Source of the DNA: Sulfurimonas sp.
GTDB lineage: Bacteria > Campylobacterota > Campylobacteria > Campylobacterales > Sulfurimonadaceae
DNA: 32,280 nt
NCBI GenBank assembly: GCA_003978475.1
Contig: QNZR01000099.1
Location: 1-32,280, forward strand
Direction: 5' to 3'
Part shown: positions 2,683-26,515 of the stretch, piece after piece
Layout: each line of letters opens with the position of its first letter
Position numbering within the stretch: position 1 is the stretch's first letter
Position numbers and translations under genes: made by a program
The notes under the pieces: model-generated
What the model was told of the DNA's origin: nothing
What the model saw: only the letters and a program-made list of their open reading frames with translations
Databases searched by the model: none

Positions 2683-3573
2683 CTATTTTCCCTTGGCGGC
2701 CATTATGCCCGCAATGATAATGAGTACAATGCCGCATGATGTCAGAACATCGGGAAGGGCATCACCAAGCATGAGCCCCAAAATAACGGAAAATACAATG
2801 CTGCTGTAACTCACCGCTCCGACAATACCCGCCTTGGAGACGCCGTACGCCCTGGTCATATAATATTGTGCCAAAGTGGCAAAGATTCCCATGCCGACAA
2901 TATAGAGCCATACCACACCCTCAGGCATAACAAATTCTCCCAGCATAAAATCCAAAGCATTTACATGTAAAAATTCAGAAAGCAGTAGCAACACCAAAGG
3001 TCCCAGCGTGCCGACGACCATAAACGAAAGCACAATAGCGCGGGTATCGTAGTAGGAACGCAATTCTCGTACCGAAGTGTATGCCAGTGCTGCCCCCACA
3101 CCGCTGAAGATACCTAAAATATCGGTCTTGCTAAAACTCAATCCCGTCGGCTGGGTAATGAAGACAATACCGATAAAACCGATACATATGCCCAGCCATC
3201 CCAGTGGGGAAAGCTGCTCGTTTAAGAGCATGTAAGCAAAGAGTGCGGTAAAAATAGGAGCGGTTTTAGAAAAGGTCATGGCATCACCCAGAGGAATATG
3301 TGCAATATTGTAAAAAAATGCCAATAAGGCAATAAACCCCATGAACCCGCGAAAAAAGAGCAGCAGCGGTCTACCGCCCTGCTGTACCAGAGGGCTTCTC
3401 ATCAGAGTCATTCCTACCAGTACCACTCCAAACAAATTTCTAAAAAAAACCACCTCCAACGAACTCATATGCTCACTGCAGAGTTTGGCAAACGCACCCA
3501 TCACGCCAAAAAGCAGTGAAGAGAGCAGCATGTATTTAATACCGGTGTCAAGATTTGTAAAAGTCTGTTTCAT
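2683..3573 (-). CDS. EamA/DMT-superfamily permease (RarD/EamA-like, about 10 TM)
   Basis: 296-aa polytopic membrane protein with two EamA-like halves, starting at ATG. It contains an in-CDS copy of the TTACATGTAA palindrome at ~2961-2970. Confidence 0.75.
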   Translation of the reverse strand: MKQTFTNLDTGIKYMLLSSLLFGVMGAFAKLCSEHMSSLEVVFFRNLFGVVLVGMTLMRSPLVQQGGRPLLLFFRGFMGFIALLAFFYNIAHIPLGDAMTFSKTAPIFTALFAYMLLNEQLSPLGWLGICIGFIGIVFITQPTGLSFSKTDILGIFSGVGAALAYTSVRELRSYYDTRAIVLSFMVVGTLGPLVLLLLSEFLHVNALDFMLGEFVMPEGVVWLYIVGMGIFATLAQYYMTRAYGVSKAGIVGAVSYSSIVFSVILGLMLGDALPDVLTSCGIVLIIIAGIMAAKGK

Positions 3574-6221: not shown

Positions 6222-7172
6222 TCATGACACGGCTTTAAGCAGATGTTGCAAATCGCTTGCTTGCATCTTGCGCCCCGCATGCTTGTGACGGTTGGCCAGA
6301 TCTATTTGTGTCATTAGTCCACTGGTGCCGTCTTCGTTAAGATAGAGCCCGTTGGAGCGGATGCGTCCGAGCACCTCGTTATGGTCGTTTTTTAGATCAA
6401 AATCATTTTTGGTGTATCCCAGATACAGTGCACCGATACCCAGCTCTGCTAAAGGAATGAGGCGACGTTCTCCGCTGCTGCTGCTCCAGATACGCAATTC
6501 GTTAAAAATCGCATCATTGGCATCAATCCATCGGTTGTTATCACTGTCGTAACGGCTTAAATCAACAAAACCATTGCCGTTAGTGGCACCAAAAAGCTCA
6601 CTGCCGTCATCAATTGTGCCGTTACGGTTCTTATCGAGCGCCAAAAATCCACTGCCTTCTTGAAGCGGCGCAACCGCCTCACCGACTCCGTCACAATCCA
6701 GATCAAAGGTAAAGGTCTCGTTTTGCAATTGCGGCAATGTTCCATCAAAATTAATCACTAACGGATCGTAAAACTGTGAGCGCTCTACCTCATACCGTGC
6801 CACAAAACTGCTTGAAAATGCCACATCCAGCGAAAGTGTAATCTCTTGTGTCGGAGTACGCACAATACCCTTCATACTCACCTCTAACGATTCGTATTCG
6901 CGACGTTCTTTATTATACGTGCCGTTTTTCTGCGCAAACTGCCCGGCATCATAGGTTTCGCACGCATATGAGCCTGATTGCAAGCTTGCCAAAAGCTGAC
7001 GAATCAATTCATATTCCAACACTTTGTCTAATGACATTTGGGCATTTGCTGCTTCAAGTTCTTGCGTGCGTTTGGCATTTTCAGCCTCTAGTTCACTGAG
7101 AAAGCCTGTAGCGACAGATGTTGTTTTCGTATGCTCAGAATGCATCTCCAGCGCAAAGCTCTCGATGGTCAT
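6222..7172 (-). CDS. Hypothetical cytoplasmic protein: N-terminal coiled-coil plus C-terminal EF-hand/FG-GAP-like Asp-rich Ca-binding loops
   Basis: 316 aa with no signal peptide. Loops DLDCDGVGE, DKNRNGTIDDGSE, DSDNNRWIDANDA. ATG at comp. 7170-7172 follows an AAAGGAG RBS. Upstream in minus-strand order are an extended -10 TGTTAAAAT (comp. 7201-7209), then the palindrome TTACATGTAA (7191-7200), then the RBS. Confidence 0.55.
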   Translation of the reverse strand: MTIESFALEMHSEHTKTTSVATGFLSELEAENAKRTQELEAANAQMSLDKVLEYELIRQLLASLQSGSYACETYDAGQFAQKNGTYNKERREYESLEVSMKGIVRTPTQEITLSLDVAFSSSFVARYEVERSQFYDPLVINFDGTLPQLQNETFTFDLDCDGVGEAVAPLQEGSGFLALDKNRNGTIDDGSELFGATNGNGFVDLSRYDSDNNRWIDANDAIFNELRIWSSSSGERRLIPLAELGIGALYLGYTKNDFDLKNDHNEVLGRIRSNGLYLNEDGTSGLMTQIDLANRHKHAGRKMQASDLQHLLKAVS

Positions 7173-7249: not shown

Positions 7250-8197
7250 TTAGCGGTGCTGTGTAATATATCGGGCAATGGCATAGCCGTGGTTCAGTCC
7301 CAATACAATGGAGCCGCCAGACTCCTGGGTAATATCACCGGCGACAAAAAGTCCTTTGACCTGTGTCTCGTAGTGCTCGTTATGAACCGGCTTGCCATCT
7401 TCAATACCGATATGACTGCTTTGTAAAAAGGCACTGGGTGTAGTGCCGCCAATAGCGTAAATAAGACGATCAAACGTTTCGCTGCTGCCGTCACCGAAAT
7501 TGACATGTACTTTTCCCTGATCGGCTTCTAACGATTCAATGGTCTGATGCAATAGCGGACGGACGGCGCCACGCTCTATGGCCGCCATAATATCCTGTTC
7601 GTTGGTCGGGTTGGCACGGCGGAAGGTTCCGCGACGGTAACAGATGCTCACTTCATTCTTGTCGGCAAGTTCTACCGCGTACTCAATCGCAGAATCTCCA
7701 CCGCCGACCACCATGATTTTTTCTCCCTGAGAGCAGTGCTCCAAGGTATAGTTGACCTGCTGCTTGATTGAGGGCGGAATAGGATAACTCGGTTTATTGG
7801 GCTTACCCATCCGTCCGATGGTGACCACAACATAACGTGCCCTAACCACACCACCGGTCATAAAAATTTCAAAACTGCCGTCAGAATGTTTGCTGATTTT
7901 TTGTACTTCGGTATGGGTTTTGAGCTCTAGGGCATGCTGATCAAGCAGATCATCAAAAAAGTCCAGAGTACTCTCTTTGGTGCCATCAACAAAGTAAATA
8001 TTACCGTCACACTCAACCTGCTGCCCTTTCCAGTCCTTATCGACCCGTTTCTTGTCTTTGTAAAACTTCCGAATGGTCGCGTTATGATTCTCATCTTTTT
8101 CCAGAAGCACGATATTACGAATCCCCAAAGCATAGCTCTCAATTGCCGTAGCAATACCTGCGGGACCAGCACCAATAATTGCCAAATCATACACCAT
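7250..8197 (-). CDS. FAD-dependent pyridine nucleotide-disulfide oxidoreductase family protein (TrxB/YpdA-like, no CxxC redox motif)
   Basis: The N-terminus is MVYDLAIIGAGPAGIATA, with a second dinucleotide-binding motif (KIMVVGGGDSAIE) and a C-terminal GLFVAGD. The real ATG is at comp. 8195-8197 with an AAGGAG RBS. The track ORF extends a further 110 aa upstream without support. Confidence 0.7.
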   Translation of the reverse strand: MVYDLAIIGAGPAGIATAIESYALGIRNIVLLEKDENHNATIRKFYKDKKRVDKDWKGQQVECDGNIYFVDGTKESTLDFFDDLLDQHALELKTHTEVQKISKHSDGSFEIFMTGGVVRARYVVVTIGRMGKPNKPSYPIPPSIKQQVNYTLEHCSQGEKIMVVGGGDSAIEYAVELADKNEVSICYRRGTFRRANPTNEQDIMAAIERGAVRPLLHQTIESLEADQGKVHVNFGDGSSETFDRLIYAIGGTTPSAFLQSSHIGIEDGKPVHNEHYETQVKGLFVAGDITQESGGSIVLGLNHGYAIARYITQHR

Positions 8198-8264
8198 AAT
8201 GTGCTCCTTATTCTCAACATTGTGCAACAGTGTAATATAATTACGTTTAATTTTCAATGGATTA

Positions 8265-9839
8265 ATGCTATACTTTAGCATGATCAATATTTCAACCAAT
8301 AAACAACTGGGTATCATGCTTCCTAACACCAATAAGGCTTTGGCAGAAGTTCTTAAAACAGCAACACCCCAGCAGCTACAAACCCTTTCTGAGGGTAAAG
8401 ATATCAAATCTATTTTACATGCCCTTCTACAGGAGCGGACCCAACACTCCAAATCTGATGCCGTGTTGCTGGATCTTTTAAAGAACAATCCGACACTCAA
8501 AAGTCTGGGAAAGGTCAGTGATACCATTCACGACCTTCTAAAGACACTAAAATCCGACGCCACTCCCCTGCCCATTGAAAAGGTACTGAAACATTTTCTC
8601 ATTGACATCAAACACATTAGCGAGCCGGTACTCAAAGAAAAGCTTGAAAATTCAGGCATCTTTTTAGAGTCAAGACTCAAAAATGCCGACAATCCGAAAC
8701 TCACCCTCAAAACAGCACTCGACTCTCTGTTGCCCCTGCTTGAAAAGAGTCACATTCCCGCCGTAAAAGCTCTCGCTAAAGAGCTTAATGCCCTCCGTCT
8801 CGATCCTGTCATCAGCCACGCCTCCAATAAAGAACTGCTCGCTGCGACCAAACAAAATACCCATGCCCTCGAAGCCGTTCTCAAACGTCTGGAGCCTTTG
8901 CTGGCTTCCCTGCAGAATCATCGTAACCATGCCGACCCCCTCTACTCAAAAACATTCTCTTCACTGCTTAAGCAAACCACTCAGCTGCTCAATGCATTTC
9001 AAATGAAACAGAGCTCTCCGGCCGTGCTGCATGAGACCCTAAATACGCTCTTGCCGATGTTACAAAACAGTAATGTGCCGGAATCCAAAACCCTCTCATC
9101 CCTTCTGAACAACATCATCAAAACGCTCGATACGATTATGGCGGCACCGCAACCACAGCACCGACTGCATGAGCGTCATCTCCCACAGCAGATTGAGCGT
9201 TTTTTAGAACAGGTATCCTCGGCACTGCAAAAATCTGACGCTGTGTATTCTAAAGAGCTGGGCACTGTGCTACAGACCCTGAAGCATCTTAATACACCCC
9301 AAAAGCTCGACACCCATCACCAAATCAAAGAGATTGTCGCCCAGGATCTTAAAGCCGTACTGCTGCAGGCCTCGGATGATATTGCCAAATCTACCCATCC
9401 CAACCAGAGCGAACTTCTCAAACAGATGGACAAACTTGCCTTGCAAATTGACTACTATCAGCTCATGTCGCATCTGTGCAATGCCTCGTCTGTGTACTTA
9501 CCGCTTTCATGGGAGCAGCTTGAAGAGGGAAACATCACCCTGAATCACCATGATGAAGAGACCTTTTACTGTGACATTGACCTGAAGCTCAAAACCTACG
9601 GTGAACTCAAACTCCGATTGATTCTCTATGACAACAATCAGCTAAACCTGCATCTGTTTTCCGAAAGCAGCGACTTGAAGCAGCTTCTTAAAGAACATAT
9701 TCCGTTATTGCGCTCTGCTCTGATTGACGCAGATATTACCCCACGTGAAATACGAATTGTCGAAGCAGCCCGCAGCACTGCCGCAACATCTTACCAAACA
9801 CCGTCTCACCTGAAAATGGGATTTGAAGTGAAAGTATGA
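8265..9839 (+). CDS. fliK: Flagellar hook-length control protein FliK-like
   Basis: 524-aa Gln/Leu/Lys-rich protein. Its C-terminal ~90 aa resemble the FliK C-terminal (Flg_hook) domain (ITLNHHDEETFYCDIDLKLKTYGELKLRLILYDNNQLNLHLF...). It is followed by an overlapping FlhB-C-like gene. The start is either ATG 8265 or ATG 8280; I cannot choose between them. Confidence 0.55.
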   Translation: MLYFSMINISTNKQLGIMLPNTNKALAEVLKTATPQQLQTLSEGKDIKSILHALLQERTQHSKSDAVLLDLLKNNPTLKSLGKVSDTIHDLLKTLKSDATPLPIEKVLKHFLIDIKHISEPVLKEKLENSGIFLESRLKNADNPKLTLKTALDSLLPLLEKSHIPAVKALAKELNALRLDPVISHASNKELLAATKQNTHALEAVLKRLEPLLASLQNHRNHADPLYSKTFSSLLKQTTQLLNAFQMKQSSPAVLHETLNTLLPMLQNSNVPESKTLSSLLNNIIKTLDTIMAAPQPQHRLHERHLPQQIERFLEQVSSALQKSDAVYSKELGTVLQTLKHLNTPQKLDTHHQIKEIVAQDLKAVLLQASDDIAKSTHPNQSELLKQMDKLALQIDYYQLMSHLCNASSVYLPLSWEQLEEGNITLNHHDEETFYCDIDLKLKTYGELKLRLILYDNNQLNLHLFSESSDLKQLLKEHIPLLRSALIDADITPREIRIVEAARSTAATSYQTPSHLKMGFEVKV

Positions 9840-10087
9840 AAAAAGCTGCCGCACTCAAATATGACCGCAGCAAAGATGCGGCTCCCAAAGTTGTCGCCAA
9901 AGGCAAAGGGCAAAGCGCCGAAAATATCATTAAAATTGCCCAACTGCACCATCTTCCCATCAAAGAAGATGCGGATCTCATTGAACTGCTCTCCAAAGTA
10001 GAGCTCAATAAAGAAGTTCCCGAAGCACTCTACAAAGCCGTTGCCGAGGTTTTTAGCTTCATATACAAAGTAACAAATAAACATTAA
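9836..10087 (+). CDS. FlhB C-terminal-domain-like small protein (FhlB/YlqH family; EscU/YscU/FlhB C-domain homologue without the NPTH autocleavage site)
   Basis: The 83-aa sequence APKVVAKGKGQSAENIIKIAQLHHLPIKEDADLIELLSKVELNKEVPEALYKAVAEVFSFIYK matches the conserved FlhB C-terminal core (PxVVAKG...IP...LY.AVAEV). Its ATG overlaps the fliK stop (ATGA). Confidence 0.75.
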   Translation: MKKAAALKYDRSKDAAPKVVAKGKGQSAENIIKIAQLHHLPIKEDADLIELLSKVELNKEVPEALYKAVAEVFSFIYKVTNKH

Positions 10088-10154: not shown

Positions 10155-10163
10155 CTGATATAA
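10155..10163 (+). promoter_or_regulatory. Extended -10 promoter element TGaTATAAT for the giant gene, in an AT-rich upstream region carrying A8 and T9 tracts
   Basis: tgatataat lies 64 bp upstream of the ATG at 10227. Upstream are A8 (~10097-10104) and T9 (~10124-10132) homopolymers. Confidence 0.4.
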
Positions 10164-10180
10164 TGCAACAAGATGTATTT

Positions 10181-10190
10181 TTACATGTAA
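10181..10190. promoter_or_regulatory. Perfect palindrome TTACATGTAA (TTTTTACATGTAAAT) between the -10 and the RBS of the giant gene
   Basis: The motif is self-complementary and is one of at least six exact copies in the window. It lies ~18 nt after the extended -10 and 23 nt before the GAGGAGA RBS. Confidence 0.5.
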
Positions 10191-10226
10191 ATCTACCGTA
10201 ACACGTACGTATTGAGGAGAATGTTC

Positions 10227-13200
10227 ATGCCTTTGAAGCAATTACGCTACTTTTTGGCTATTGTTATGCTGCTGCCCACGCTAGCATTGGCCGAAACCGT
10301 TTATCTGTATAAGAGTAACGACGCCACCAGTCCTTTAGAATCGGGAAAAACCTTTTTCTATACCATTAAATACTCGTGTGAAAGCACGACGCTCAACTGT
10401 TCTGATGTCGATATTGATGATCTGCTTTCGGATGATTTGAAGCTCATTAAAGTCTTTTCTCCCTCCGATGCCACCTTTAGCAGCAGCGGTAGTGACTATA
10501 ATGCCAAAGCGCTCAAGTGGCATTTTCCGCAAATTGCCGCCGGAACAACCGGAGAGATTCGCTATAAGGTTGAAGTACGTCCCGGCACCGTAGCAGACGG
10601 CTCAAGCATTACCAATTTTGCCGTACCGACCCGTAATGTCAGCACCACTCCCGTCGTCGACCCCAACAGCAATACCGATACTTTGGCTATTGCTGCAACG
10701 CCGCAGTGGCATGTCACCAAAACACCGCAGGCGTATGATCAGTTTCACAGTGGTTTTTACCTTGATACCGATATTACCTACACACTCCAACTCTGTCCCG
10801 ATACGACCATTGGGAACGTGAATCTCACCGATATCAATATCACCGATACCTACCCTGCCGGTGCCACCGTAGTCAACAACGGCGGCGGCAGCGTCGATGC
10901 AACAACACATACCATAACCTGGAGTGGACTGAGTGCCGATGTCAGCAGCGGTTGTATCAACAAAAATATTGTTCTTAATTTTCCCACCCCGACATTCAGC
11001 ACGGCTCAAACGGTAGATAATCGTGTCGATGTTACCGGAACGCCCATCGGCGGCACCAATGGACCTGTCGGCAGTGCGACGGTCAGTAACACCCTGGAAC
11101 CTTTTGTCTTTAACCCGACGCCGCAAATAAGTATTGCTAAAACGGCCGTCGTTCCGACCAATAACAATCTCGACTGGATTCGTGACGATGATCTGGGAAC
11201 GAATCATACGATCACGTACACACTCTCACCACAAAGTACGGGAAATGTGCCGCTTACGAACATGTATATGAGTGATACGTTCCCCACCAATGAGATCGCA
11301 GTCCTGCAGATCACCACCGGTGTCTACAGCAGTGCGGGTGATGTTAATATTTCCTACCAAACCAGTGCCAACCCGACATGGACCCTTAAAGGAACCTACA
11401 GCCGCAGCAGTTCGGTGACACTGAACCATACCGACTTTGGTACCGTCACAACAGGAGGTGAGTACCTCACAGCCATTCGATTCGATTTCGGTGATGTACC
11501 TCTGGATTTTCAAGCCACCACACCACCGACCGTCAGTGCCTCGGTCTTTCATACGTTTCGTGACGGTACCACCCCCAATGAGGGCGATATTAACACCCTC
11601 ATTCACAACTGTGCACAACTCAACGCTGACGACAATGCCACCACCCCGCAGCCGCTTACTCAGGTAGCATCATGCAAAGATGTCGAAATACGTGACAACT
11701 ATGCCGTACCCAAAGCCCTTAAGTCAGCATCATCAGACGAGTTGAGTCTCAATGAAGAGTTTACCTATACCATTGACGTAACCAACTCCAATGACGGTAC
11801 GGGAAGTTTAACCGACCCGATTGTATTTGACCTGCTGCCCCGCGGCATTGAATATATCTCAACCACCTACAATGACAATGGTCATACCGGTGTCACTCAA
11901 GTACTCTCCGTTGAAAACGGCAGCGGTGCCGATACCGATCGTACCCTGCTGCGCTGGAATTTTACCGGTACCCTGCAGCGCGGTGAAGCAGTCACACTCG
12001 AAGTGACGGTAAAAGTTCTCAATACCGCAGGAAACGGTACGTTGACCAACAAAGCGTACATCACCACACAAGATACAACCGTACCCTTTTCCTGTCATGT
12101 CCTCAACGGAGAGCAGGACAGTGCTCAAGACATTACCGATCCCACACTTCTCTCCTACACCAACACGTCACCCACGGTGGCCAAGGTGTGTGAGCAGTCC
12201 AACAGTGTCAATATTATCAATGTTGCCAAAATTGTCTCGCAGAAGTGGGTCAAAGGAGCATACGATACCGCATGGAGCCGTTTCCCCGCTTCGGGAAAAA
12301 CCTATGCCGGAGGTTCGGCAGACTATAACCTTACCATACAAAACGGCGGTAATGTCGCCGTCAGTAATATTGAGATTATTGATATTTTACCATTCGTTGG
12401 CGATACCGGTGTCAAAGACACGTCGGCACGCCACAGTGAGTGGCGTACCAATCTTGCCAAGCCTATTGTCACCTCTTTAGGAGATGTCTACTACTCCCTT
12501 GCGGGTAATCCGTGTCGTGCTCCTGATTATCTGGCAAGTGACACCCTCACATGTCAGGCACCCAACTGGTCTTTGACGCCTCCGGGTGACATTACCCAGG
12601 TGCGTTCCATTAAAATTGTCTTTGATCCCGCTATTGTGATTCAGCCCAATGAAAGTCGAAGCCTCATCTGGAATATGCAGGCCCCGACAGATACGCCGCC
12701 TGCCGCAATTGCGTGGAACTCCTTTGCCTTTAAAGGTGACCGTTCAGACGGCAGTGCTTTACTCGCCGCTGAGCCGCTTAAGGTTGGTATTGAGGTAAAT
12801 CCCGATCAACAAAACAGCTACGGTGACACCGTCTGGCTTGACATTAACCAAGACGGCATTCAAGATCCCGCAGAACCGGGAATTAACGGTGTCAAAGTAG
12901 AACTTTATGATGCCAGTAACGATACTCTGATCGATACCACCTATACCGCCACCGACATTAACGGCAATTTGGGAAAATATCGTTTTAGCGATGTGCCTGA
13001 CGGCAGCTACTATGCCGTTTTTACCCTCATTGACGGCTTTATCGTCTCTCCTGCCAACAGTGGCGGTGATGATACGCTTGACAGTGACGCCGAGACCTCT
13101 TTGGGCGCATCACGCTACCAAACTGCCACAACGGTTTTGGGTTCGCCTGAAAATGACATGAGCTGGGATATGGGGATCTACCCCGATGCCACCCATGCCG

Positions 13201-16200
13201 CTGTCGGTGATTATGTCTGGTACGATCAAATCGCTTATGACGGAGTACAAGATGCCAATCCGGTTGCCGACATGGTTGTTGAACTTCATACTGCTGATGG
13301 TACCCTTGTCGATGCTACCGCTACCTCTGTTGCCGGAAAGTACCTCTTTTATACCAATGTCTCTCCTACTACCGAGTACTATATTGCATTCATTACCCCA
13401 TACGGTTCGGGTATGACCTACCACAATCAAGGTGGTGACGATACGCTTGACAGTGATGCCGACTACACCAAACGCACACCGCTTTTTACCATCTCTGCCA
13501 ATTCTCAGGCTCCGGGAGAAGATCCCGATTTTGACGGCAATACCATCAACAATGTCAACCTGAGCGTTGACGGCGGTATTGTCGCCTCGGCATCATTGGG
13601 AGACACCGTCTGGCTGGAACGATACCCCAACGGTATTCAAGATGACGATGAAAACGGTATTGCGGGGGTCACCGTCACGCTTATTAATGAAACCACCGGT
13701 AACACTGTTGCCGGCATCACCACCACGGATGCCAACGGCAGTTATCTTTTTGAAGATCTCACACCCGGAGACTATCATGTCGAATTTGACTGGTCCGGCA
13801 TTGATTTTGCCACGCATCCTTACATCATTACCCCATCCATGCAGGGGTCGGACAGTACCAAAGACAGTGACGGCAACAGCGTTAGCGGCAATAGCCAACA
13901 AGCAATTACCAATACCATCACCCTGTCTGAGGGTACTAACGACCTTGATTGGGATCTGGGATTGTTTCGTCATGTCTCTTTGGGAGATCTCGTCTGGCTC
14001 GATGCCAACGGCAACGGTATTCAGGAGAGTGAAGCGGGTGTACCCAATATCGAGGTGCAGCTGTTTCAAGGAGGCGTCCGGGTGCTTCAGGATGATCTGG
14101 GCAATGCGTTTGGTACCGTCATTACCGATGCCAACGGAAACTACCTTTTTGACAACCTGCGTCCCGATACTTACCAAGTCAAATTTGTTTTGCCCGTCGG
14201 CAGCGGCTATGTCTTTACCCGACCGCGCTACGGCGGTAATCTTCGAACCGATGACAGCGATGCCAATGCCTATGCCAATGACGGCATGTCCTCTATAGTC
14301 TCTGTAAGCACCGTTTATGCCAACGGTTACCCCTATCTGGATGCCGGAGTTTTCATTCCGGCATCTATCGGTGATTTTCTCTGGCACGATATCAACGCCA
14401 ACGGCATTCAAGACGGTGGTGAACCGACCATTAGCGGAGCAGAGATCAGTATTAATAATATCAATTTTAGCAATACCGATGTCGATGGTTTGTCATTAGA
14501 CCCATTGTTTAGTGATGCGAACGGGAATTATCTGTTCGATCGGCTGTATCCGGGAACTTACGAACTCACTTTTACCCTGCCAAGCGGCTATATGTGGACC
14601 TACGCTTTAGCAGGAACCGACCCCGCACTTGACAGCAATGCCCCGGCAACCGTCACTGAGACGCTTGTATCTGATGAAGACAACCTCACTGTTGATGCCG
14701 GTGTTCTTCTGCCCGCATCCCTCTCGAACTATGTCTGGCTTGATGTCAATCATAACGGAATTCAGGATGTCGGTGAAAACGGCATTGCCAATGTCAGTCT
14801 CTCCCTGCTTGATGCAAACGGTACTACTATTGCCACACAAACCACCAATGCAGCAGGTGAATACCGCTTTGACAATCTCTTTCCCGGAACCTACAGCATC
14901 AGTATGACACTGCCCAATGGGTACTACGTCACACTTCAAGATGCCGGCGGAGACGACACGCTTGACAGCGATCTTGATCCGACGACATTACGCACAACAC
15001 CTACCTCCCTCACCGAAGGAGAAGCTGATACTTCGTGGGATATCGGGTTATTTGAGGTCGCTTCCATCGGTGATCGTGTCTGGCTCGATACCGATGCCAA
15101 CGGTGTTCAAGACGGAGGAGAAAACGGTATTGCCGGCATTAGTGTCTCTCTTGTAGACAGTAGCGGTAACAGCGTCACCGATGCTTCGGGTACGCCCGTC
15201 GCGGCACAGAGTACAGCAGCTGATGGCAGTTACCTGTTCGATCTGCTTCTTCCGGGAGACTACAAAGTCTGCTTTGATACTACCGGATATGAGATTAGCG
15301 ACCAAGACAGCAGCAGTACTGACGACACCCTTGACAGTGACGTCAATGCCACCACCAAATGTACCGACATCGAAACCCTTGATCCGCAGGAGTCCAATCG
15401 GGATTACGATCTGGGTCTGTATCATAATGCCGCCGCACTCGGAGATACCGTCTGGATCGATACGAATCAAAACGGCATACAAGACAGTGGCGAAAACGGT
15501 GTTGCCGGTATTACCGTCAACCTGCTCGATGATCTGGGCAATCTTCTTGCTACCACCACTACCGATAGCAGCGGTAACTATACGTTTCAAAATGTAAAAC
15601 CCGATTTTTATGAGGTAGAGTTCAATCTCTCCACACTGCCAACAGGCTATGTCGTCACCTCAGCCAACAGTGGCAATGATGATGCCGTTGACAGTGATGC
15701 CGACACGCAAAGCGGCAAAACCGGAACCTTTCAACTCTTCAGTGCCGACAATATTCTCACCTATGATATGGGGATTTTTGAGACCGGAAGCATTGGTGAT
15801 ACCGTCTGGTATGATACGAATCGTGACGGAGTTCGCGATGCCAATGAGAGCGGGATTGTCGGTATTACCGTACATCTTTTAGATAGCAACGGCAATCCGG
15901 TGCTTGATGCCAATGGTTCAGCAATGATGACAACAACCGATGCTTCCGGACATTATCTCTTTGAGCATCTTTACGCCGGCGATTATATTGTTGAGGTCAC
16001 GGCACCTTTTGGTTATACCATCAGTCCGCAACACAGTGGCGGCGATACAACAACCGATAGTGATATCGACCCTATCAGCAAGCGAACCCCGATAATTACC
16101 ATTGGCAGCGGTACGCACAATATGGACAATGATGCGGGGCTCTACATTCCCTATGCTTCGCTGGGAGATCGTGTCTGGCATGATCTGAACCGCAACGGCA

Positions 16201-19200
16201 TTCAAGACAGCGGTGAACCGGGTGTTGGCAACGTCCGTGTTGAACTCTATGCCAACAGTTACGTTGCCGGCGACGACAACACCTCGAGCAGTTTTTTAAG
16301 CAGTACACTCACCAGCAGTGACGGACACTACCACTTTGCCGATCTTATTCCCGACAGCTATGTCCTGAAGTTCATTCCGCCTGCGGGTTACCAACGCTCT
16401 GCACAAGATCAAGGTACGGACGATGCGGCCGACAGCGATAGTGATGCTACAGGTATGGTGACCGTAGCGGCACTTACGGCAGATGAGGATGATACCGGTT
16501 GGGACATGGGAATTTACATGTACGCAGAAATTGGAAATTACGTCTGGGTCGATACTAACGGTAACGGGGTACAAGATAGTGGCGAAAATGGGCTTGACGG
16601 TGTGGACGTTACCTTAACGCGACAATCCGATAACGCTACCTTCACGACCACAACCGCCAACTCGGGTGCCTATCGGTTTGAGAATCTTGAACCCGACAAC
16701 TATATGCTGAGTTTTGCACTGCCTCTTGGATATGAGGTCACGGTAGCCAATGCCGGCACGGATGATACCCGCGACAGTGATGCCGATGCCACGCTGACGA
16801 CAACACTCACCTCGCTTGATTCTAACGAGAGTGATATGAGCTGGGATCTCGGGGTCATTGAACGCGCTGCTATTGGCGATACCGTCTGGCGTGATGACAA
16901 TCGTGACGGCAGAGATGACGGTAGTGAACCGCGTGTTGCGGGCATCATCGTCAATCTTCTGGGGAGTAACGAAAATCTTATTGCTACGACAACAACCGAC
17001 ACTAACGGGCACTATGCCTTTACCAATTTGTTACCCAATGACTATATTGTCGAATTTAACCTGAGTTCACTGCCACCACACTTTGTTCCAACCTTGCACA
17101 ATCAAGGAGGTGATGATACCGCAGACAGTGATGCCAATCCGTCCACCGGTCGTACTAATATTATTGCGCTCCCAAGTGGCGAAAACAATACGAGTATCGA
17201 TATGGGAATCTTTATTCCACAAACCGCTCTTGGTGATCGGGTCTGGGACGATCTTAACGTCAACGGCATACAAGACAGTAACGAGCTGGGTGTTTCAGGT
17301 GTTTTAGTCCAGCTTCTCGATAACAGCGGCAACAGTGTTATCGATGCTACCGGAACAGCAGTCGATCCGGTCTATACCAACAGCAGCGGAAACTATTATT
17401 TCAGCAATTTGGTTCCGGGTGAGTACATGGTGGCATTTACACTGCCCTCAGGTTATGGTCTCACGGTAGCCAATAACGGCAATGACGATGAAGACAGCGA
17501 CGTCAACCCGATAACCATGCGCACTCCGGTGACCACACTAACTGCCCAGGAACAAGACACCACACTTGATATGGGTATTTACCGCTTTGCCTCGTTAGGG
17601 GATGTTGTTTGGGATGACCGCAACCGCAACGGCATACAAGACAGTGGCGAAAACGGTGTTGCCAATGTCAGTGTTCATCTGCTTGATCGTAACGGCAGCC
17701 TTTTACAGAGTACCACCACCGATACGTCGGGAATGTACCGTTTCGAGAATCTGGAACCCTCAGAGTATCGGGTTGAATTTGATCTGACTACGTTGCCGGC
17801 CTACTATGTTGTCACACCTCAAAACATCGGTAGCCATAACGATGCTAACGACAGTGATGCGGATCCGGTTACGGGAATCTCTCATCTCATTCGTCTTGAT
17901 GGCGGCGAACATGACGGCAGTATTGACATGGGTATTCATCTGCCGCCGACAAGTTTAGGCGATTTGGTCTGGAACGACACCAATGGCGACGGCATTCAAG
18001 ATACCAATGAAAGCGGTGTCGCCAATGTTACGGTAGAGCTGCTTGATGATGCCGGCACCGTCATAGCAACGCTCACAACTGACAGCAGTGGACACTATGA
18101 GTTTAGCGACCTCTACCCGGGCACCTATTCGGTGCACTTTGTTTTGCCTGCAGGCTATGTACTTTCACCGGCACACCAGGGAGATAATACCCGCGACAGT
18201 GACGTTGAGGCAGCCACCATGACAACGCCGACGGTAACGCTGGACGCCGGCATGCATAATACCGATCTGGATATGGGCATCTATCCGCTAAGCACTCTTG
18301 GCGATACCGTCTGGCACGATGACAATGCCGACGGCACCGTAGACACCACAGAAGCACGTTTTAGCAATGTTACCGTTATCTTGTCTGATATCTTCGGCAA
18401 CACCGTTGCAACCACCACGACCGACAGTGAGGGTACCTATCTCTTTGAAAATCTTGTACCGGGTAATTATCAGGTTCAAGTCGACGAGAGTACCCTTCCT
18501 TCGGGCAGTTGGGCCAGTACCACCATGAATGTTCCGATGCCGGTACTGCTGCCACCGGCATCAGATTTTTTAGATGCCGATTTTGGGTATGACCATGACA
18601 GTGACGGGGACGGCATTGCCGATACCGTTGAAGCACCGCCGTATGTCGACCCCGATACGGGTCTGACAGTCACGCCGCCAAGTGTCGTCGTTGATGCCAA
18701 CCATGACGGTCGTGATGATGCCACCGGTATTCCAACCCAGCTCATCGACCTGGATCATGACGGTATTCCCAATTATTTAGATACCGACAGTGACGGTGAC
18801 GGCATTCCCGACGCTGACGAACTTGGCGATCATGACGGTGACGGCATTCCCGACTATCTTGATTATGATCCGCAGGGGTATTTTTATGATGTCGATGATG
18901 GCACGATTGTCTCGGGAGGCTCTATTGAAATTACCTGTGACAATGCACAGACACCGGTCATTGTCAAAGATGGCAGTGACGGTGAGTACCAGTGGTACAT
19001 TCCGGGTCTTTCGACAACGACAACATGTACCATGCACTTTAGCATTCCGCCTCGCTACGATCTTGATACCGACTGTAGTGAACAAGCAGGAGCACTCGAT
19101 CCGAGCGGACAACCCAACCCGTACTACATCGGCAGTTCGCAAAACGGTCTCAGCGGCAAACTGGTTGATTTTAGCTGCAGCGCCAACCCGTGGTACAGCA

Positions 19201-19373
19201 CCTTCATTCTGGAGCCGGGTGATCCGGAGGTTATGACAAACAACGTACCGATTAAAAAACAGCCCGTAACCGTGCCGACACTGGGTGAATGGGGACGCAT
19301 CTTCATGATACTTGGTATGTTCCTTGTCGCCTGTCTTGGGCTGCAACGCAGACAACAACGCCCAAGCGCGTAA
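10227..19373 (+). CDS. Giant (~3,048 aa) secreted repeat protein: Sec signal peptide, DUF11-like N-terminal domains, 16 SdrD-B/Cna-B-type domains, TSP3-like Asp repeats, IPTL-CTERM sorting signal
   Basis: The track ORF starts at TTG 10212. The ATG at 10227 has a GAGGAGA RBS 6 nt upstream and gives [25 protein letters not shown], a signal peptide with an AxA cleavage site. The frame is uninterrupted for 9.1 kb. Domain-level evidence is listed under the separate features. Confidence 0.9.
   Translation: [3048 protein letters not shown]
10300..12818 (+). other. N-terminal region with DUF11/'conserved repeat domain'-like motifs in the giant protein
   Basis: Recurring motifs [47 protein letters not shown] and [15 protein letters not shown] resemble the xTDxLPxGxxYV core of DUF11 (TIGR01451-like) beta-sandwich repeats. 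Confidence 0.45.
12819..18510 (+). repeat. Array of 16 protein-level tandem repeats (~118 aa each) of SdrD-B/Cna-B-type Ca-binding domains. The DNA copies are diverged, not identical.
   Basis: Each unit opens with (L/I)GDxVWxDxNxNGIQDxGExG(I/V)xGVxVxLxD, e.g. [48 protein letters not shown] ... [16 protein letters not shown]. Each also carries an ...TTTDxxGxYxFxNLxPGxYxVxF core and a [10 protein letters not shown]-type acidic loop. Confidence 0.8.
18589..18870 (+). other. Thrombospondin type-3-like Asp-rich Ca-binding repeats (DxDxDGxxD)
   Basis: [14 protein letters not shown] ... [12 protein letters not shown] ... [41 protein letters not shown]. Confidence 0.6.
19272..19370 (+). other. IPTL-CTERM-type C-terminal sorting signal (PTLxEWG motif, TM helix, Arg-rich tail)
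   Basis: The C-terminus [33 protein letters not shown] matches the tripartite IPTL-CTERM architecture (TIGR04174-type). Confidence 0.7.
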
Positions 19374-19390
19374 GTATGTCTGCTACAATT

Positions 19391-19400
19391 TACATGTAAT
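19391..19400. promoter_or_regulatory. Palindrome TTACATGTAA (AATTTACATGTAATATT) 17 bp downstream of the giant-gene stop, in the convergent giant-gene/bcp spacer
   Basis: Exact decamer copy. There is no downstream gene in an orientation it could promote, so it may mark a looping partner or a boundary site. Confidence 0.4.
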
Positions 19401-21894: not shown

Positions 21895-23124
21895 TCAACT
21901 TCGGATCATATGAATCACCTGCACGAACATCAGCACGCCGCCCACCACCAACAAAGAGACACCCATATCAAAGAGTAGCGGGTTGGCAACCAGCAGTGCC
22001 AAAGTGCTCAGAAACAGACCGCTGCTACTAAAAAAGAACTGGGCACTCGCCAGACGCCGGTTCACCAGTTCGTGCAGCATGGGAACCGCCTGCTCCTCTA
22101 CCAGCGGAGCGTACCGCTGAAACCAGACCAGAAACGGAAGAATCTTGTAAAAATTTCCCAAAATCATAAAACCTGTAAAGCCGACCAAAAGTAGCCACAG
22201 ACCTGGTCGCAGCAGTTCGGAAATACCGAAAAAATGGAGTGCCACAAAGAGCCATGACAGCGCCAGTGATACCGCGGCAACATACATGGAGCGTGCCCAG
22301 ATATCATGCTCTACCCGTGCACGTGATGTCAACATTTGAAACAGTCGGTACCCGAAAAAAGCGACCGAGAACATCACCCATATCATCCCCATCTTCTGAA
22401 GTCCCTCATGAACGAACAGGGCACCGGCAACGGCCAGTATGACACCGGTCAGCATGCTGATAAAACTCATGCCAAAGTCATTGTCGCTAACACGTTTTGA
22501 AGAGCCGAACATGGGCACCAAAATGGTGGCAATACCCATAATGAGCATCATAACAAAACCACCCAGGAGTGCAAAAACATGACTGTTGAACCACGGTGCA
22601 AGCGCCACGGGTGCACCGTTGTAAATAAACGCCATGACCAGACCGCTTAACACACCAAAAAGCAAAAATACATTACTCGCTTTCATGGAACGTGTCACAC
22701 TGGTGTGACGCCCGCCATGTTGCAGTGTCCACCAAAAATCAACAACAAACAGGAGCATGCCCGTCAATACCAGCATACCGCCAAACGGTAAGAACGATGC
22801 CGACAGGTAAAAACCTGAAAGTATCACTATCAATCCCACGACAAGAAACACCCAGATAAGATGAAAAAAACTCAAAAAACGGTGGTTCGCCTCAACAATA
22901 ACCGGTCCCAGCTGTGCCATAGCGGCAATAATACTCATCATGACAAAACCGATCATGTACAAATGCACCCACCCCAGCAGCTGCGCCTGATGCCAGGAAG
23001 CACCGATGTCCAGAAAAAACAGCAACACCATTGCCATCACATATGACAGGCTTGCAACCATGAAATAGGGCGCCATAATGCGCATTGGCGGTGAAAAATC
23101 GGGAGAAACATTCACGTGATGCAA
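21895..23124 (-). CDS. Polytopic integral membrane protein (~12 TM, His-rich), possibly NnrS family. Family call is tentative.
   Basis: 409-aa hydrophobic ORF with many conserved-looking His/Trp in TM segments (NHRFLSFFHL, LPFLVWFQRY). It is divergent from a truncated-haemoglobin gene. The start codon is uncertain: the track uses TTG at 23124, and an in-frame ATG lies at ~23085. Confidence 0.5.
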   Translation of the reverse strand: MHHVNVSPDFSPPMRIMAPYFMVASLSYVMAMVLLFFLDIGASWHQAQLLGWVHLYMIGFVMMSIIAAMAQLGPVIVEANHRFLSFFHLIWVFLVVGLIVILSGFYLSASFLPFGGMLVLTGMLLFVVDFWWTLQHGGRHTSVTRSMKASNVFLLFGVLSGLVMAFIYNGAPVALAPWFNSHVFALLGGFVMMLIMGIATILVPMFGSSKRVSDNDFGMSFISMLTGVILAVAGALFVHEGLQKMGMIWVMFSVAFFGYRLFQMLTSRARVEHDIWARSMYVAAVSLALSWLFVALHFFGISELLRPGLWLLLVGFTGFMILGNFYKILPFLVWFQRYAPLVEEQAVPMLHELVNRRLASAQFFFSSSGLFLSTLALLVANPLLFDMGVSLLVVGGVLMFVQVIHMIRS

Positions 23125-25834: not shown

Positions 25835-26515
25835 ATGGTTCATGAAGCACTAGATCGTGTTGACTGGGAGAAGTCCGAACTTCTCCCTGTCATTGTCCAA
25901 GAGATTAACAGCCGTGAAGTTCTTATGCTGGCATACATGAACCGTGAGGCACTGCGCCTCTCTTTGGAGACTAAAATAGCGCACTATTTTTCACGCTCCA
26001 AACAGCGTATTTGGAAAAAAGGAGAACGTAGCGGGCATATTCAAAAAATTCATCATTTTGCCCTGGACTGCGACCAGGATACATTACTCATTCATGTCGA
26101 ACAAGAAGGAGTCGCCTGTCACACCGGACGACCTTCATGTTTTTTTACCGAACTTCAAAGCGGTGAAGCGCAACAAAATGTTGCCGTTGACGCTCAGGCA
26201 ATGTACGGCGTGATCGATACCCTCTATCACACGATTTTAGAACGTAAACATGCCGATGCCGCGTCATCATGGACGGCAAAACTGTTACAGCAGGGTGATA
26301 ACGCCATTTTAAAAAAGGTGGTTGAAGAGGCGGGTGAGTTTGCTTTTGCCTGCAAAGACAATGATGAACATGAGATTATTTATGAATGTGCCGATCTGAC
26401 CTACCACGTGCTTGTGGCACTGGGTTCTAAAAATATTGCTCCCGATCGCATCAAACAGGAGCTGGCACGGCGCAGCGGTATCAGCGGTATTGAAGAGAAA
26501 AATTCCCGCCACTAA
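25835..26515 (+). CDS. hisIE: Bifunctional phosphoribosyl-AMP cyclohydrolase / phosphoribosyl-ATP pyrophosphatase
   Basis: The N-terminal half is HisI (LLPVIVQE...KGERSGH...DCDQDTLLIHVEQEGVACHTGRPSCFF) and the C-terminal half is HisE (LYHTILERK...EEAGEFAFA...DLTYHVLV). An AGGGAG RBS is present. Its stop overlaps the next ATG (TAATG). Confidence 0.9.
   Translation: MVHEALDRVDWEKSELLPVIVQEINSREVLMLAYMNREALRLSLETKIAHYFSRSKQRIWKKGERSGHIQKIHHFALDCDQDTLLIHVEQEGVACHTGRPSCFFTELQSGEAQQNVAVDAQAMYGVIDTLYHTILERKHADAASSWTAKLLQQGDNAILKKVVEEAGEFAFACKDNDEHEIIYECADLTYHVLVALGSKNIAPDRIKQELARRSGISGIEEKNSRH

What the first reader, a model, noticed from the sequence alone, without database searches (positions are those of the whole stretch)
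10227..19373. Giant 3,048-aa secreted Ca-binding repeat protein with an unusual domain combination (DUF11 + 16x SdrD-B/Cna-B + TSP3 repeats + IPTL-CTERM)
A single uninterrupted 9.1-kb ORF with a good RBS encodes a classical Sec signal peptide (MPLKQLRYFLAIVMLLPTLALA|E). An ~860-aa region with DUF11-like beta-sandwich motifs follows, then sixteen ~118-aa domains that all open with the SdrD-B-type motif GDxVWxDxNxNGIQDxGE. After these comes a run of thrombospondin-type-3-like DxDxDGxxD repeats and then a C-terminal sorting signal. The repeats are diverged at nucleotide level, so no long identical DNA repeats are visible. That argues for an old, stable array rather than a slippage-prone one. The architecture suggests a Ca2+-rigidified fibrillar adhesin or surface-layer component. 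SdrD-B domains plus TSP3 plus IPTL-CTERM in an epsilonproteobacterial-type context is not a combination I recognise as described. The gene lies directly after the flagellar fliK/flhB-like pair and is bracketed by TTACATGTAA palindromes.
Basis: partly seen in the sequence, partly recalled or inferred. Interest (0 to 1): 0.62.

Follow-up and report, generated by a model that had tools for sequence, protein, structure and literature searches.

The report
Giant calcium-binding surface fibre protein
This is an intact 3,048-residue secreted protein of a Sulfurimonas-type vent bacterium, built like a long calcium-stiffened surface fibre (a fibrillar adhesin); it is a large but fairly ordinary member of a widespread class that has not been studied experimentally.

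Summary
One uninterrupted ORF (10227-19373, +) encodes 3,048 aa with a Sec signal peptide. Pfam finds 16 SdrD_B domains (1,503 bits). The N-terminal ~840 aa carries DUF11/CLIPPER-type domains.

The TSP3 and IPTL-CTERM calls are only partly supported. Both fall below the curated cut-offs. The DxDxDGxxD motifs and a VPTLGEWG + helix + RRQQR tail are present, and one orthologue's tail passes TIGR04174.

New here:
- The "unknown" C-terminal 130 aa is a divergent CnaB-like domain (pLDDT 96). It belongs to a family of at least 485 clusters that is absent from Pfam and NCBIfam. In about 30% of the occurrences examined it lies at the C-terminus, usually followed by an IPTL-type signal.
- Six orthologue clusters (73-81% identity) are collinear, with no change in repeat number.

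The domain combination is not unusual: DUF11 + SdrD_B giants occur in many phyla, some with IPTL-like tails. The TTACATGTAA "brackets" are a lineage-wide over-represented motif. No sorting enzyme could be checked.

Verdict: new member of a known kind; modest interest.

The parts
10156..10164 (+). Probable extended -10 promoter element, TGATATAAT
   Evidence: Read directly from the sequence. It is conserved as TGGTATACT and CGATATAAT in the orthologous loci L001 and L002. The sigma-70 scanner, which requires a -35 element, found nothing. The promoter is therefore inferred, not shown.
10181..10190 (.). TTACATGTAA palindrome between the -10 element and the RBS
   Evidence: It has 1 mismatch in L001 and is degenerate in L002. 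It is one copy of a lineage-wide motif.
10214..10219 (+). Ribosome-binding site GAGGAG, 7 nt before the ATG
   Evidence: AGGAGA is conserved in L001 and L002.
10227..19373 (+). Whole coding sequence: 3,048 aa plus stop
   Evidence: It is identical to P0001 and equals NCBI RUM64885.1, 'hypothetical protein [Sulfurimonas sp.]'.
10227..10292 (+). Sec-type signal peptide, aa 1-22, predicted cleavage ALA|E
   Evidence: Sequence features, conserved in orthologues. No predictor was run.
10293..10700 (+). Head domain D1 (aa ~23-158), DUF11/DUF7927-type beta-sandwich with the invariant pair Cys51-Cys58
   Evidence: Pfam DUF11 32 bits and DUF7927 29-36 bits. The AF2 model is all-beta. The Cys pair is invariant; Lys29 is conserved only in the closer relatives.
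10701..11117 (+). Head domain D2 (aa ~159-297), CnaA-like, with triad Lys165/Asp207/Asn265 and Cys190-Cys243
   Evidence: The triad columns are invariant in 10 homologues of 26-88% identity. pLDDT is about 90.
11118..11696 (+). Head domain D3 (aa ~298-490), a longer CnaA-like domain with Lys305/Asp350/Asn461 and Cys462-Cys483
   Evidence: Lys305 and Asp350 are invariant in A2. Asn461 is invariant in A3 and present in 8 of 10 sequences in A2. DUF7507 and DUF11 hits are weak.
11697..12098 (+). Head domain D4 (aa ~491-624), canonical CLIPPER/DUF11, with Lys499/Asp535/Asn608
   Evidence: DUF11 44.8 bits and TIGR04226 33 bits against a cut-off of 30. The triad is invariant. A profile of D4 hits 9IFR at E 1.7e-4 and SpaA 3HR6 at E 5.8e-4, with Lys/Asp and Asp/Asn aligned respectively.
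12099..12212 (+). Low-confidence linker (aa ~625-662) closed by the invariant pair Cys623-Cys655
   Evidence: pLDDT is about 40. The Cys pair is invariant.
12213..12809 (+). Head domain D5 (aa ~663-861), CnaA-like with an insertion; Lys673/Asp719/Asn831 and Cys763-Cys776
   Evidence: The triad and the Cys pair are invariant. DUF7507 gives 20-25 bits.
12810..18584 (+). Stalk: 16 SdrD_B (CnaB-fold) Ca2+-binding domains, aa 862-2786
   Evidence: Pfam SdrD_B 1,502.9 bits in 16 stretches. Two units align to the S. aureus SdrD B1-B2 structure 10ps at E 1.3e-31 with the acidic motifs conserved.
18585..18869 (+). TSP3-like Ca2+-binding linker (aa 2787-2881) with 4-5 DxDxDGxxD motifs
   Evidence: Motifs. 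Pfam TSP_3 20.0 bits and TSP3_bac 19.5 bits, both below the cut-off of 25.
18870..19262 (+). Base domain (aa 2882-3012): divergent CnaB/transthyretin-like beta-sandwich ending in NNVPI; family not in Pfam or NCBIfam
19272..19370 (+). C-terminal tripartite sorting signal (aa 3016-3048): VPTLGEWG, a hydrophobic helix, then RRQQR
   Evidence: Sequence; helix in the AF2 model. TIGR04174 and PF18203 are sub-threshold here. The orthologue P0006 scores 22.9, P0087 21.2 and P0009 36.2 against a cut-off of 20.5. There are weak hits to 'midcut-by-XrtH'.
19390..19399 (.). TTACATGTAA palindrome between the convergent giant gene and bcp
   Evidence: A copy is conserved at the same place in L002.

Best explanation
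The gene encodes a giant, highly acidic cell-surface fibre protein of the fibrillar-adhesin type. The mature protein is about 318 kDa with a calculated pI near 4.

Shown:
- An intact ORF with a signal peptide.
- A distal N-terminal 'head' of five CnaA/CLIPPER-like beta-sandwich domains. Three carry invariant Lys/Asp/Asn triads of the kind that form intramolecular isopeptide bonds, and there are conserved Cys pairs.
- A stalk of 16 SdrD-B-type domains that keep the acidic Ca2+-binding motifs of S. aureus SdrD.
- A TSP3-like acidic linker.
- A divergent CnaB-like base domain.
- A C-terminal motif-helix-basic tail of the IPTL-CTERM type.

Inferred mechanism:
1. The protein is exported by Sec and held at the inner membrane by the C-terminal helix.
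2. The domains fold in the periplasm. Disulfides and spontaneous isopeptide bonds lock the head.
3. An exosortase-type enzyme (XrtH-like, by analogy) cleaves at or near VPTLGEWG. It hands the protein on to the outer surface or the exopolysaccharide matrix by a route nobody has defined.
4. Ca2+ binding to the roughly 16 x 3 stalk sites and the TSP3 sites stiffens the chain into a rod on the order of 100 nm.
5. The rod presents the head for attachment to mineral surfaces, other cells or matrix. The ligand is unknown.
For: - ORF and signals.
- SdrD_B x16 and DUF11.
- Ca2+-motif conservation against the SdrD structures. Motif counts, pI and charge.
- Triads invariant across homologues of 26-88% identity. 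Profile alignment to 9IFR and SpaA.
- CLIPPER, DUF7507 and DUF7927 are described as isopeptide domains of fibrillar-adhesin stalks in PMC12617251.
- Base domain.
- Tail.
- An IPTL-CTERM protein is an outermost-layer protein in a diderm bacterium (PMC8671808).
- Purifying conservation, collinearity and synteny in six orthologue clusters.
Against: - No recognised ligand-binding (adhesive) domain was found; the head consists only of stalk-type folds.
- The window protein's tail is below both curated IPTL-CTERM thresholds.
- No exosortase gene appears in the window or in any fetched locus. The rest of the genome could not be inspected.
- How a 3,000-aa protein would cross the outer membrane is unknown.
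- Ca2+ binding, isopeptide bonds and surface exposure are all inferred from homology.
Confidence: 0.6

Rival explanations
1. It is a released structural or matrix protein, or a component of an S-layer-like coat, rather than a cell-anchored adhesin. After exosortase-type cleavage it is shed into the exopolysaccharide layer, possibly glycosylated, and acts as a Ca2+-cross-linked scaffold.
For: [quoted passage not shown]
- The only IPTL-CTERM protein found in the literature search is an S-layer protein.
- There are 18 D/E-X-N-X-S/T sequons against 5.2 +/- 2.3 in shuffles.
- A small protein made only of the same base cassette lies beside an STT3-type oligosaccharyltransferase and glycosyltransferases (L007).
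- P0009 lies next to polysaccharide export and synthesis genes.
Against: - The architecture (long stalk, conserved distal head, anchor-type tail) is that of fibrillar adhesins.
- There are no polysaccharide genes next to this gene or its orthologues.
- The sequon excess partly reflects the repeated D-x-N-G-S/T loop motifs of the B domains, so the shuffle control overstates it.
Confidence: 0.22
2. The C-terminal helix is a plain inner-membrane stop-transfer anchor that is never processed, so the protein stays tethered to the inner membrane.
For: The window protein's tail does not reach the IPTL-CTERM cut-offs. No exosortase was seen in any locus.
Against: - The [IV]PT[LI]xxWG motif is strictly conserved in the orthologues and recurs after the same base domain in unrelated proteins, which a simple anchor would not need.
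- Homologous tails do pass TIGR04174.
- A chain of about 23 beta-sandwich domains is far longer than a periplasm is wide (inference).
Confidence: 0.1
3. It is functionally tied to the flagellum, for example a sheath or filament-associated protein co-expressed with fliK and the flhB-like gene.
For: It lies immediately downstream of fliK and an 83-aa FlhB C-terminal-like gene on the same strand. This order is conserved in L001 and L002.
Against: - A 139-nt AT-rich spacer with a conserved extended -10 element and its own RBS precedes the gene.
- It has a Sec signal peptide rather than a flagellar type III export signal.
- The more distant homologues P0007 and P0087 sit in unrelated contexts.
Confidence: 0.04
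4. The long ORF is an assembly artefact or a decaying pseudogene.
For: The source is a metagenome-assembled contig, and repeat-rich genes are prone to mis-assembly.
Against: - There are six independent orthologue clusters from different assemblies, each 3,042-3,051 aa, uninterrupted and collinear.
- The repeats are only 60-76% identical at the DNA level, so they do not confuse assemblers.
Confidence: 0.01

Closest known systems
S. aureus SdrD (MSCRAMM), B-repeat region (PDB 4JDZ, 10PS)
   Same: The 16 stalk units are the same Pfam family (PF17210). They align to B1-B2 at E 1.3e-31 with the GDxVWxDxNxNGxQD, TDxxGxYxF and DSD acidic motifs conserved. Ca2+-dependent rigidity of B repeats is established for SdrD (my own knowledge: Josefsson 1998; Wang 2013).
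   Different: There is no N2-N3 ligand-binding A region, no Ser-Asp repeat and no LPXTG signal. NF012181 scores 1,024 bits against a cut-off of 2,500. The host is a diderm, there are 16 units rather than 5, and the head and anchor are different.
CLIPPER (DUF11) fibrillar adhesin B9T28_05395 of Acinetobacter silvestris (PDB 9IFR; PMC12617251)
   Different: Here the CLIPPER-type domains form a fixed five-domain N-terminal head rather than a tandem mid-protein stalk. The 9IFR entry is deposited under the name 'OmpA-like domain-containing protein', which suggests a different anchoring domain in that adhesin; its anchor was not examined here. That survey was limited to AlphaFold-database proteins of 1,280 aa or less, so giants like this one were not covered.
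IPTL-CTERM / exosortase-type sorting substrates (TIGR04174, PF18203), e.g. the Methylomirabilis lanthanidiphila S-layer protein mela_00855 (PMC8671808)
   Same: Both have an N-terminal signal peptide and a C-terminal motif + helix + basic cluster. The motif here is VPTLGEWG against the consensus IPTLxEWG. Homologous tails pass the model.
   Different: This protein's own tail is sub-threshold. The cognate enzyme was not found or checked. The cargo is ten times larger than the S-layer protein.
Giant 'TIGR01451 / SdrD B-like / isopeptide-forming fimbrial' repeat proteins of Chloroflexi, Verrucomicrobiota and others (e.g. P0008, P0010, P0017)
   Same: They carry DUF11 plus many SdrD_B domains. The same 840-aa head is present at the N-terminus at 26-30% identity over its full length.
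   Different: Their C-terminal ends differ: LPXTG-like, T9SS-type or unknown. Repeat numbers differ. None has been characterised experimentally.
RTX biofilm adhesins of Gram-negative bacteria (LapA, MpIBP)
   Same: They work alike: very long, acidic, Ca2+-rigidified strings of beta-sandwich domains that project a distal binding region (my own knowledge; Vance 2020 is cited in PMC12617251).
   Different: They are unrelated in sequence, secretion and anchoring: type I secretion with an N-terminal retention module, against Sec plus a C-terminal sorting signal here.

Membership tests
SdrD_B domain (Pfam PF17210) | Profile score at or above the gathering threshold | tested here: met
   1,502.9 bits against 29.7, in 16 separate stretches.
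SdrD_B domain (Pfam PF17210) | Acidic Ca2+-binding loop motifs of the SdrD B domains are conserved | tested here: met
   Alignment to 10ps and 4jdz. DxNxNGxxD is present in 14 of 16 units, DDxxDSD in 13 and TDxxGxYxF in about 13. Actual Ca2+ binding was not tested.
MSCRAMM adhesin SdrD/SdrC (NCBIfam NF012181, NF000535) | Full-length score at or above the curated cut-off (A region + B repeats + SD repeats + LPXTG) | tested here: not met
   1,023.9 against 2,500, and 792 against 1,700; only the B-repeat part of the models matches.
CLIPPER / DUF11 (Pfam PF01345), isopeptide-forming CnaA-like domain | Profile score at or above the gathering threshold | tested here: met
   59.6 bits for the whole protein and 74.6 bits for the head alone, against 24.6. 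TIGR01451 gives 64 against 24, and TIGR04226 gives 33 against 30.
CLIPPER / DUF11 (Pfam PF01345), isopeptide-forming CnaA-like domain | CnaA-like beta-sandwich fold | tested here: met
CLIPPER / DUF11 (Pfam PF01345), isopeptide-forming CnaA-like domain | Lys (first strand), catalytic Asp and Asn (last strand) triad | tested here: met
   K165/D207/N265, K499/D535/N608 and K673/D719/N831 are invariant in 10 diverse homologues. D4 aligns Lys and Asp with 9IFR, and Asp and Asn with the SpaA middle domain. The triad is less complete in D1 and D3.
CLIPPER / DUF11 (Pfam PF01345), isopeptide-forming CnaA-like domain | A covalent Lys-Asn bond is actually formed | not testable with these tools
   This needs mass spectrometry or a crystal structure.
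Thrombospondin type 3 repeat (PF02412, PF18884) | Profile score at or above the gathering threshold | tested here: not met
   20.0 and 19.5 bits against 25; E-values 5e-4 and 9e-4.
Thrombospondin type 3 repeat (PF02412, PF18884) | Repeated DxDxDGxxDxxD/E calcium-binding motif | tested here: met
   Four exact DxDxDGxx[DN] motifs plus DANHDGRDD within aa 2791-2876.
IPTL-CTERM sorting signal (TIGR04174, PF18203) | Profile score at or above the curated cut-off | tested here: not met
   The window tail scores 10.1-10.3 against 20.5, and 16.5 against 20.8. Orthologue tails score 15.1-22.9; only P0006 passes.
IPTL-CTERM sorting signal (TIGR04174, PF18203) | Tripartite layout at the extreme C-terminus: IPTLxxWG-like motif, hydrophobic helix, basic cluster | tested here: met
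   VPTLGEWG (3016-3023), IFMILGMFLVACLGL, then RRQQR. The helix appears in the AF2 model. The motif is conserved in the orthologues.
IPTL-CTERM sorting signal (TIGR04174, PF18203) | A cognate exosortase (XrtH) is encoded in the same genome | not testable with these tools
   None was found in the 32-kb window or in loci L001-L009. The XrtH link rests on my own knowledge of NCBIfam naming and on weak 'midcut-by-XrtH' hits.
Fibrillar adhesin-like protein (criteria of Monzon et al. 2021, PMC8286594) | Extracellular, with a stalk of repeated domains and a surface-anchoring motif | tested here: met
   Signal peptide, 16 SdrD_B plus CLIPPER-type domains, and a C-terminal sorting-type tail. The criteria are quoted.
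Fibrillar adhesin-like protein (criteria of Monzon et al. 2021, PMC8286594) | An adhesive region at the terminus distal to the anchor | tested here: inconclusive
   No known adhesive domain was detected. However, the 840-aa head is conserved as one unit at the N-terminus of giants from several phyla, which fits a functional tip.

The most novel reading that the evidence does not exclude
Two pieces of this protein may be undescribed functional modules rather than generic stalk.

(a) The cassette 'TSP3-like acidic linker + ~130-aa divergent CnaB-like domain ending in NN[IV]P + IPTL-type tail'. The ~130-aa domain recurs in at least 485 protein clusters and is in no domain library. It could be the recognition or attachment module through which an exosortase-H-like system fixes very different cargos to the cell envelope or matrix. 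This would happen in Campylobacterota, where no such sorting system has been described.

(b) The five-domain, isopeptide-locked 840-aa head, conserved from Campylobacterota to Chloroflexi. It could be a cross-phylum adhesive tip with a common, unknown ligand.

In addition, the protein may be a major N-glycoprotein. It has 18 PglB-type sequons, about ten of them conserved, and Sulfurimonas encodes a PglB homologue.
Probability: 0.25. Interest if true: 0.55.

Novelty: new member of a known kind. Interest (0 to 1): 0.3.

Why it matters
Sulfurimonas and its relatives dominate sulfidic vents and sediments, where attachment to minerals and mats matters ecologically. No adhesin of theirs has been characterised.

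This gene is a concrete, conserved candidate for such attachment: single-copy and syntenic in at least six related lineages.

It also gives a well-defined example of three features that have mostly been studied in Gram-positive bacteria, here in a diderm:
- SdrD-type Ca2+ stalks.
- Isopeptide-locked CnaA-like domains.
- A sortase-like C-terminal signal.

It further flags a widespread anchor-proximal domain that is missing from Pfam and NCBIfam.

None of this overturns current ideas. The value is mainly for annotation and for choosing targets for experiments.

Tried and rejected
- Exact look-ups of the protein (both starts) and of the neighbouring bcp product found nothing. The identity came instead from the homology search and cluster listing.
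- The single genome-contig scan, run with the head, returned one weak Campylobacterales hit. The orthologue MAGs are evidently not species representatives, so no taxonomic survey was possible.
- A profile search of the word-indexed protein database with the base-domain alignment returned one hit only. The exhaustive representative search had already shown the family is large.
- phmmer of the head against PDB sequences gave nothing. The base-domain profile gave only chance-level L,D-transpeptidase hits at E about 0.2. Fold comparison was needed in both cases.
- The afdb50 fold library was unavailable.
- The search for an exosortase next to this gene, its orthologues, more distant homologues and small cassette-only proteins found none.
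- The Haft 2012 exosortase paper is not held. Literature searches for XrtH/IPTLxxWG and for exosortase plus Sulfurimonas gave nothing useful.
- Rfam and tRNA scans of the window were empty.
- Isopeptide-type SdrD_B (a Lys/Glu/Asn triad, Table 1 of PMC12617251) was considered and rejected. From inspection of the unit alignment, the B units open with GDxVW and show no Lys at the first-strand position, so they look like the Ca2+ type; this was not tested systematically.
- Horizontal acquisition was considered. GC is about 0.50 in the gene against about 0.47 in the flanks, and synteny is conserved, so there is no support.
Full report
**Observation**

The window is a complete 32,280-bp metagenomic contig. 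The giant protein is identical to JGI protein P0001. With the ATG two codons upstream, it equals NCBI RUM64885.1, 'MAG: hypothetical protein DSZ03_03670 [Sulfurimonas sp.]'.

The ORF from the ATG at 10227 to the stop at 19373 has 3,048 codons and no internal stop. GAGGAG lies 7 nt upstream.

The flanks are ordinary chromosomal genes of a campylobacterotal type. Upstream lie kdsA, an EamA transporter, mscL, a flavin oxidoreductase, fliK and an 83-aa FlhB C-terminal-like protein. Downstream lie bcp, an aldehyde dehydrogenase, a globin, ilvE, hisIE, two DUF2393 genes, purF and dapB. Base composition shows no island signature.

- SdrD_B is overwhelmingly supported: 1,502.9 bits in 16 stretches.
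- DUF11 is supported at 59.6-74.6 bits against a cut-off of 24.6. DUF7507 and DUF7927 also match in the first 860 aa.
- TSP_3 and TSP3_bac give 20.0 and 19.5 bits, below the cut-off of 25. Four to five DxDxDGxxD motifs are nevertheless present.
- IPTL-CTERM is below threshold in both libraries for this protein: 16.5 against 20.8, and about 10 against 20.5.
- The tail still has the full tripartite layout: VPTLGEWG, a 15-residue hydrophobic stretch, then RRQQR.
- The motif is conserved in all orthologues. The tails of orthologue P0006 (22.9 bits), P0087 (21.2) and P0009 (36.2) pass TIGR04174.
- I therefore call it a divergent IPTL-type signal, not a certified member.

**The repeat array**

The 16 units are 114-131 aa long and average 41% pairwise identity, range 29-54%. 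At the DNA level the copies are 60-76% identical, and Tandem Repeats Finder sees no array.

Two units align to the crystal structure of S. aureus SdrD B1-B2 at E 1.3e-31, with the acidic loop motifs retained. From inspection of the unit alignment, the units show no Lys at the first-strand position that the isopeptide subtype of SdrD_B would need (Table 1 of PMC12617251), so they look like the Ca2+-binding kind; this was not tested systematically. The mature protein is very acidic, with 433 D+E against 105 K+R and a calculated pI of about 4.

**Orthologues**

Five further 90%-identity clusters (P0002-P0006) are 73-81% identical over 100% of the length and 3,042-3,051 aa long. A global alignment shows only 1-5-residue indels and no gain or loss of a unit.

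Units are much closer to their positional orthologues (about 75%) than to their neighbours (about 41%). The array therefore predates these lineages and is not being homogenised.

The gene order fliK - flhB' - giant - bcp is conserved in two orthologous loci. More distant homologues with the same head and tail but fewer units (P0007, 2,060 aa; P0087, 1,440 aa) sit in unrelated neighbourhoods. An extended -10 element (TGATATAAT), the RBS and the start codon are conserved upstream of the gene. I see no evidence for a functional link to the flagellum.

**The N-terminal head**

The 843 residues after the signal peptide are homologous over their full length to the N-termini of other giants. Identity is 38-40% to P0161 and P0007, 31% to P0235, and 25-30% to P0010, P0008 (Chloroflexi), P0236 and P0029.

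In a ten-sequence alignment the invariant columns are three Lys/Asp/Asn triads and three Cys pairs, with a fourth Cys pair (C190-C243) nearly invariant (invariant in the eight-sequence alignment A3):
- Triads: K165/D207/N265, K499/D535/N608 and K673/D719/N831.
- Cys pairs: C51-C58, C623-C655 and C763-C776 (invariant); C190-C243 (nearly invariant).
- K305 and D350 are also invariant.

A profile of domain 4 hits 9IFR (E 1.7e-4) and SpaA (E 5.8e-4). The conserved Lys and Asp align to those of 9IFR. The Asp and Asn align to positions that, by my recollection of the SpaA numbering (D241, N321), are its isopeptide residues.

PMC12617251 describes DUF11/CLIPPER, DUF7507 and DUF7927 as intramolecular-isopeptide domains of fibrillar adhesins in Gram-negative bacteria and archaea. 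Its survey was limited to proteins of 1,280 aa or less.

The head is thus five CnaA-like domains, at least three of them very probably isopeptide-locked. No classical adhesive domain was detected.

**The C-terminal 'unknown' domain**

An exhaustive HMMER search with residues 2882-3048 found 485 representative clusters at E<=1e-3, and 296 at E<=1e-10. Neither Pfam nor NCBIfam covers the domain in this protein. A few members weakly touch SdrD_B, CarboxypepD_reg or SpaA_4.

In 53 of 180 occurrences examined, the domain lies within 60 residues of the C-terminus. It ends in NN[IV]P, and about 10-15 residues later comes a sorting-type tail, most often [IV]PT[LI]xEWG. Eight to ten of 42 such tails pass the IPTL-CTERM models.

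Carriers include Acidobacteriota MAG proteins and many unnamed metagenomic proteins. The TSP3-like linker, this domain and the tail therefore form a recurrent anchor-proximal cassette.

**How unusual is the combination?**

It is not unusual. Most of the 67 proteins recovered with the full-length query carry both PF01345 and PF17210. They are labelled, when labelled at all, as TIGR01451-family repeat proteins, SdrD B-like domain proteins or isopeptide-forming fimbrial proteins, from several phyla. Their C-termini vary: LPXTG-like, IPTL-like or other.

What is specific here is the host lineage and the lack of any experimental work on such proteins.

**Mechanism**

My best account is as follows:
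1. The protein is exported by Sec.
2. It folds in the periplasm, with disulfides and isopeptide bonds forming.
3. An exosortase-type enzyme recognises the C-terminal signal.
4. The protein is displayed on, or released into, the cell envelope or matrix.
5. Ca2+ binding to the B domains and the TSP3-like linker stiffens it into a long rod that presents the head.

Only the sequence and fold features are shown. Processing, outer-membrane passage, Ca2+ binding, cross-links and ligand are inferred. No exosortase was seen in any of the nine loci inspected, and the genomes themselves could not be searched. This is the main gap.

**Side observations**

- TTACATGTAA, read by the first stage as a bracket, occurs 6 times in the window against 0.02 expected.
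- It also occurs 2-6 times in each Campylobacterales-type locus fetched, and not at all in a non-campylobacterotal locus. It is a lineage-wide over-represented palindrome of unknown role.
- The protein has 18 D/E-X-N-X-S/T sequons against 5.2 +/- 2.3 in shuffles, and about ten are conserved in all orthologues.
- Sulfurimonas denitrificans encodes a PglB homologue (PMC4894442).
- One cassette-only protein sits next to an STT3-type oligosaccharyltransferase.
- N-glycosylation is therefore a reasonable but untested possibility. Part of the sequon excess comes from repeated loop motifs.

**Verdict**

This is a real, intact and conserved gene. It is a new, uncharacterised member of the known class of DUF11/SdrD_B fibrillar-adhesin-like giants, carrying a divergent IPTL-type tail. 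The claim of an unusual architecture and the significance of the palindromes were not borne out.

Noticed in passing
window 2961, 7191, 10181, 19390, 20284, 23756; also L001, L002, L003, L004, L006: The 10-bp palindrome TTACATGTAA, usually flanked by a T-run and an A-run, occurs 6 times in 32 kb against 0.02 expected. It occurs 2-6 times in every Campylobacterales-type locus fetched, partly at conserved intergenic positions, and not at all in the non-campylobacterotal locus L005. It could be a global operator, an uptake-type sequence or a methylation-related site. No literature match was found.
   Followed up: partly
window 10227-19373 (aa 202-2596 of the giant protein): There are 18 bacterial N-glycosylation sequons (D/E-X-N-X-S/T) against 5.2 +/- 2.3 in composition-matched shuffles (maximum 13 in 1,000). 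About ten are conserved in all six orthologues. The excess is partly explained by repeated D-x-N-G-S/T loop motifs. Sulfurimonas denitrificans has a PglB homologue (PMC4894442).
   Followed up: partly
L007 10001-10879 and neighbours (L007 2760-15033): A 292-aa protein has a Cys-rich N-terminal part followed by the base domain and an IPTL-like tail. It sits directly beside an 890-aa STT3/PglB-type oligosaccharyltransferase and a block of glycosyltransferases. This hints that cassette-bearing proteins may be glycoprotein substrates. It is a single example.
   Followed up: no
window 8265-9839 and 9836-10087 (+): A fliK homologue (Flg_hook domain) is followed, with overlapping stop and start, by an 83-aa protein that matches only the C-terminal 74 residues of FlhB/YscU. 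This is a stand-alone FlhB C-terminal domain gene, conserved in L001 and L002.
   Followed up: partly
window 7250-8527 (-): The 425-aa ORF of the flavin oxidoreductase overlaps the fliK start by about 260 nt. Its Pfam match begins at residue 113. The orthologous genes in L001 and L002 encode 314-315 aa, so the true start is probably internal, near 8195.
   Followed up: no
window 6222-7172 (-) and 21895-23124 (-): Two conserved neighbours have no Pfam or NCBIfam hit in my scans. One is a 316-aa protein, whose orthologues carry a precomputed PF26745 'SPM' hit. The other is a 409-aa protein, with a 406-aa orthologue in L002 and no family on record.
   Followed up: no
window 26515-27030 and 27021-27578 (+): A tandem pair of DUF2393 genes lies downstream of hisIE and is conserved in L002.
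   Followed up: no
window 1-32280: No tRNA genes and no Rfam family reach threshold anywhere in the window.
   Followed up: yes
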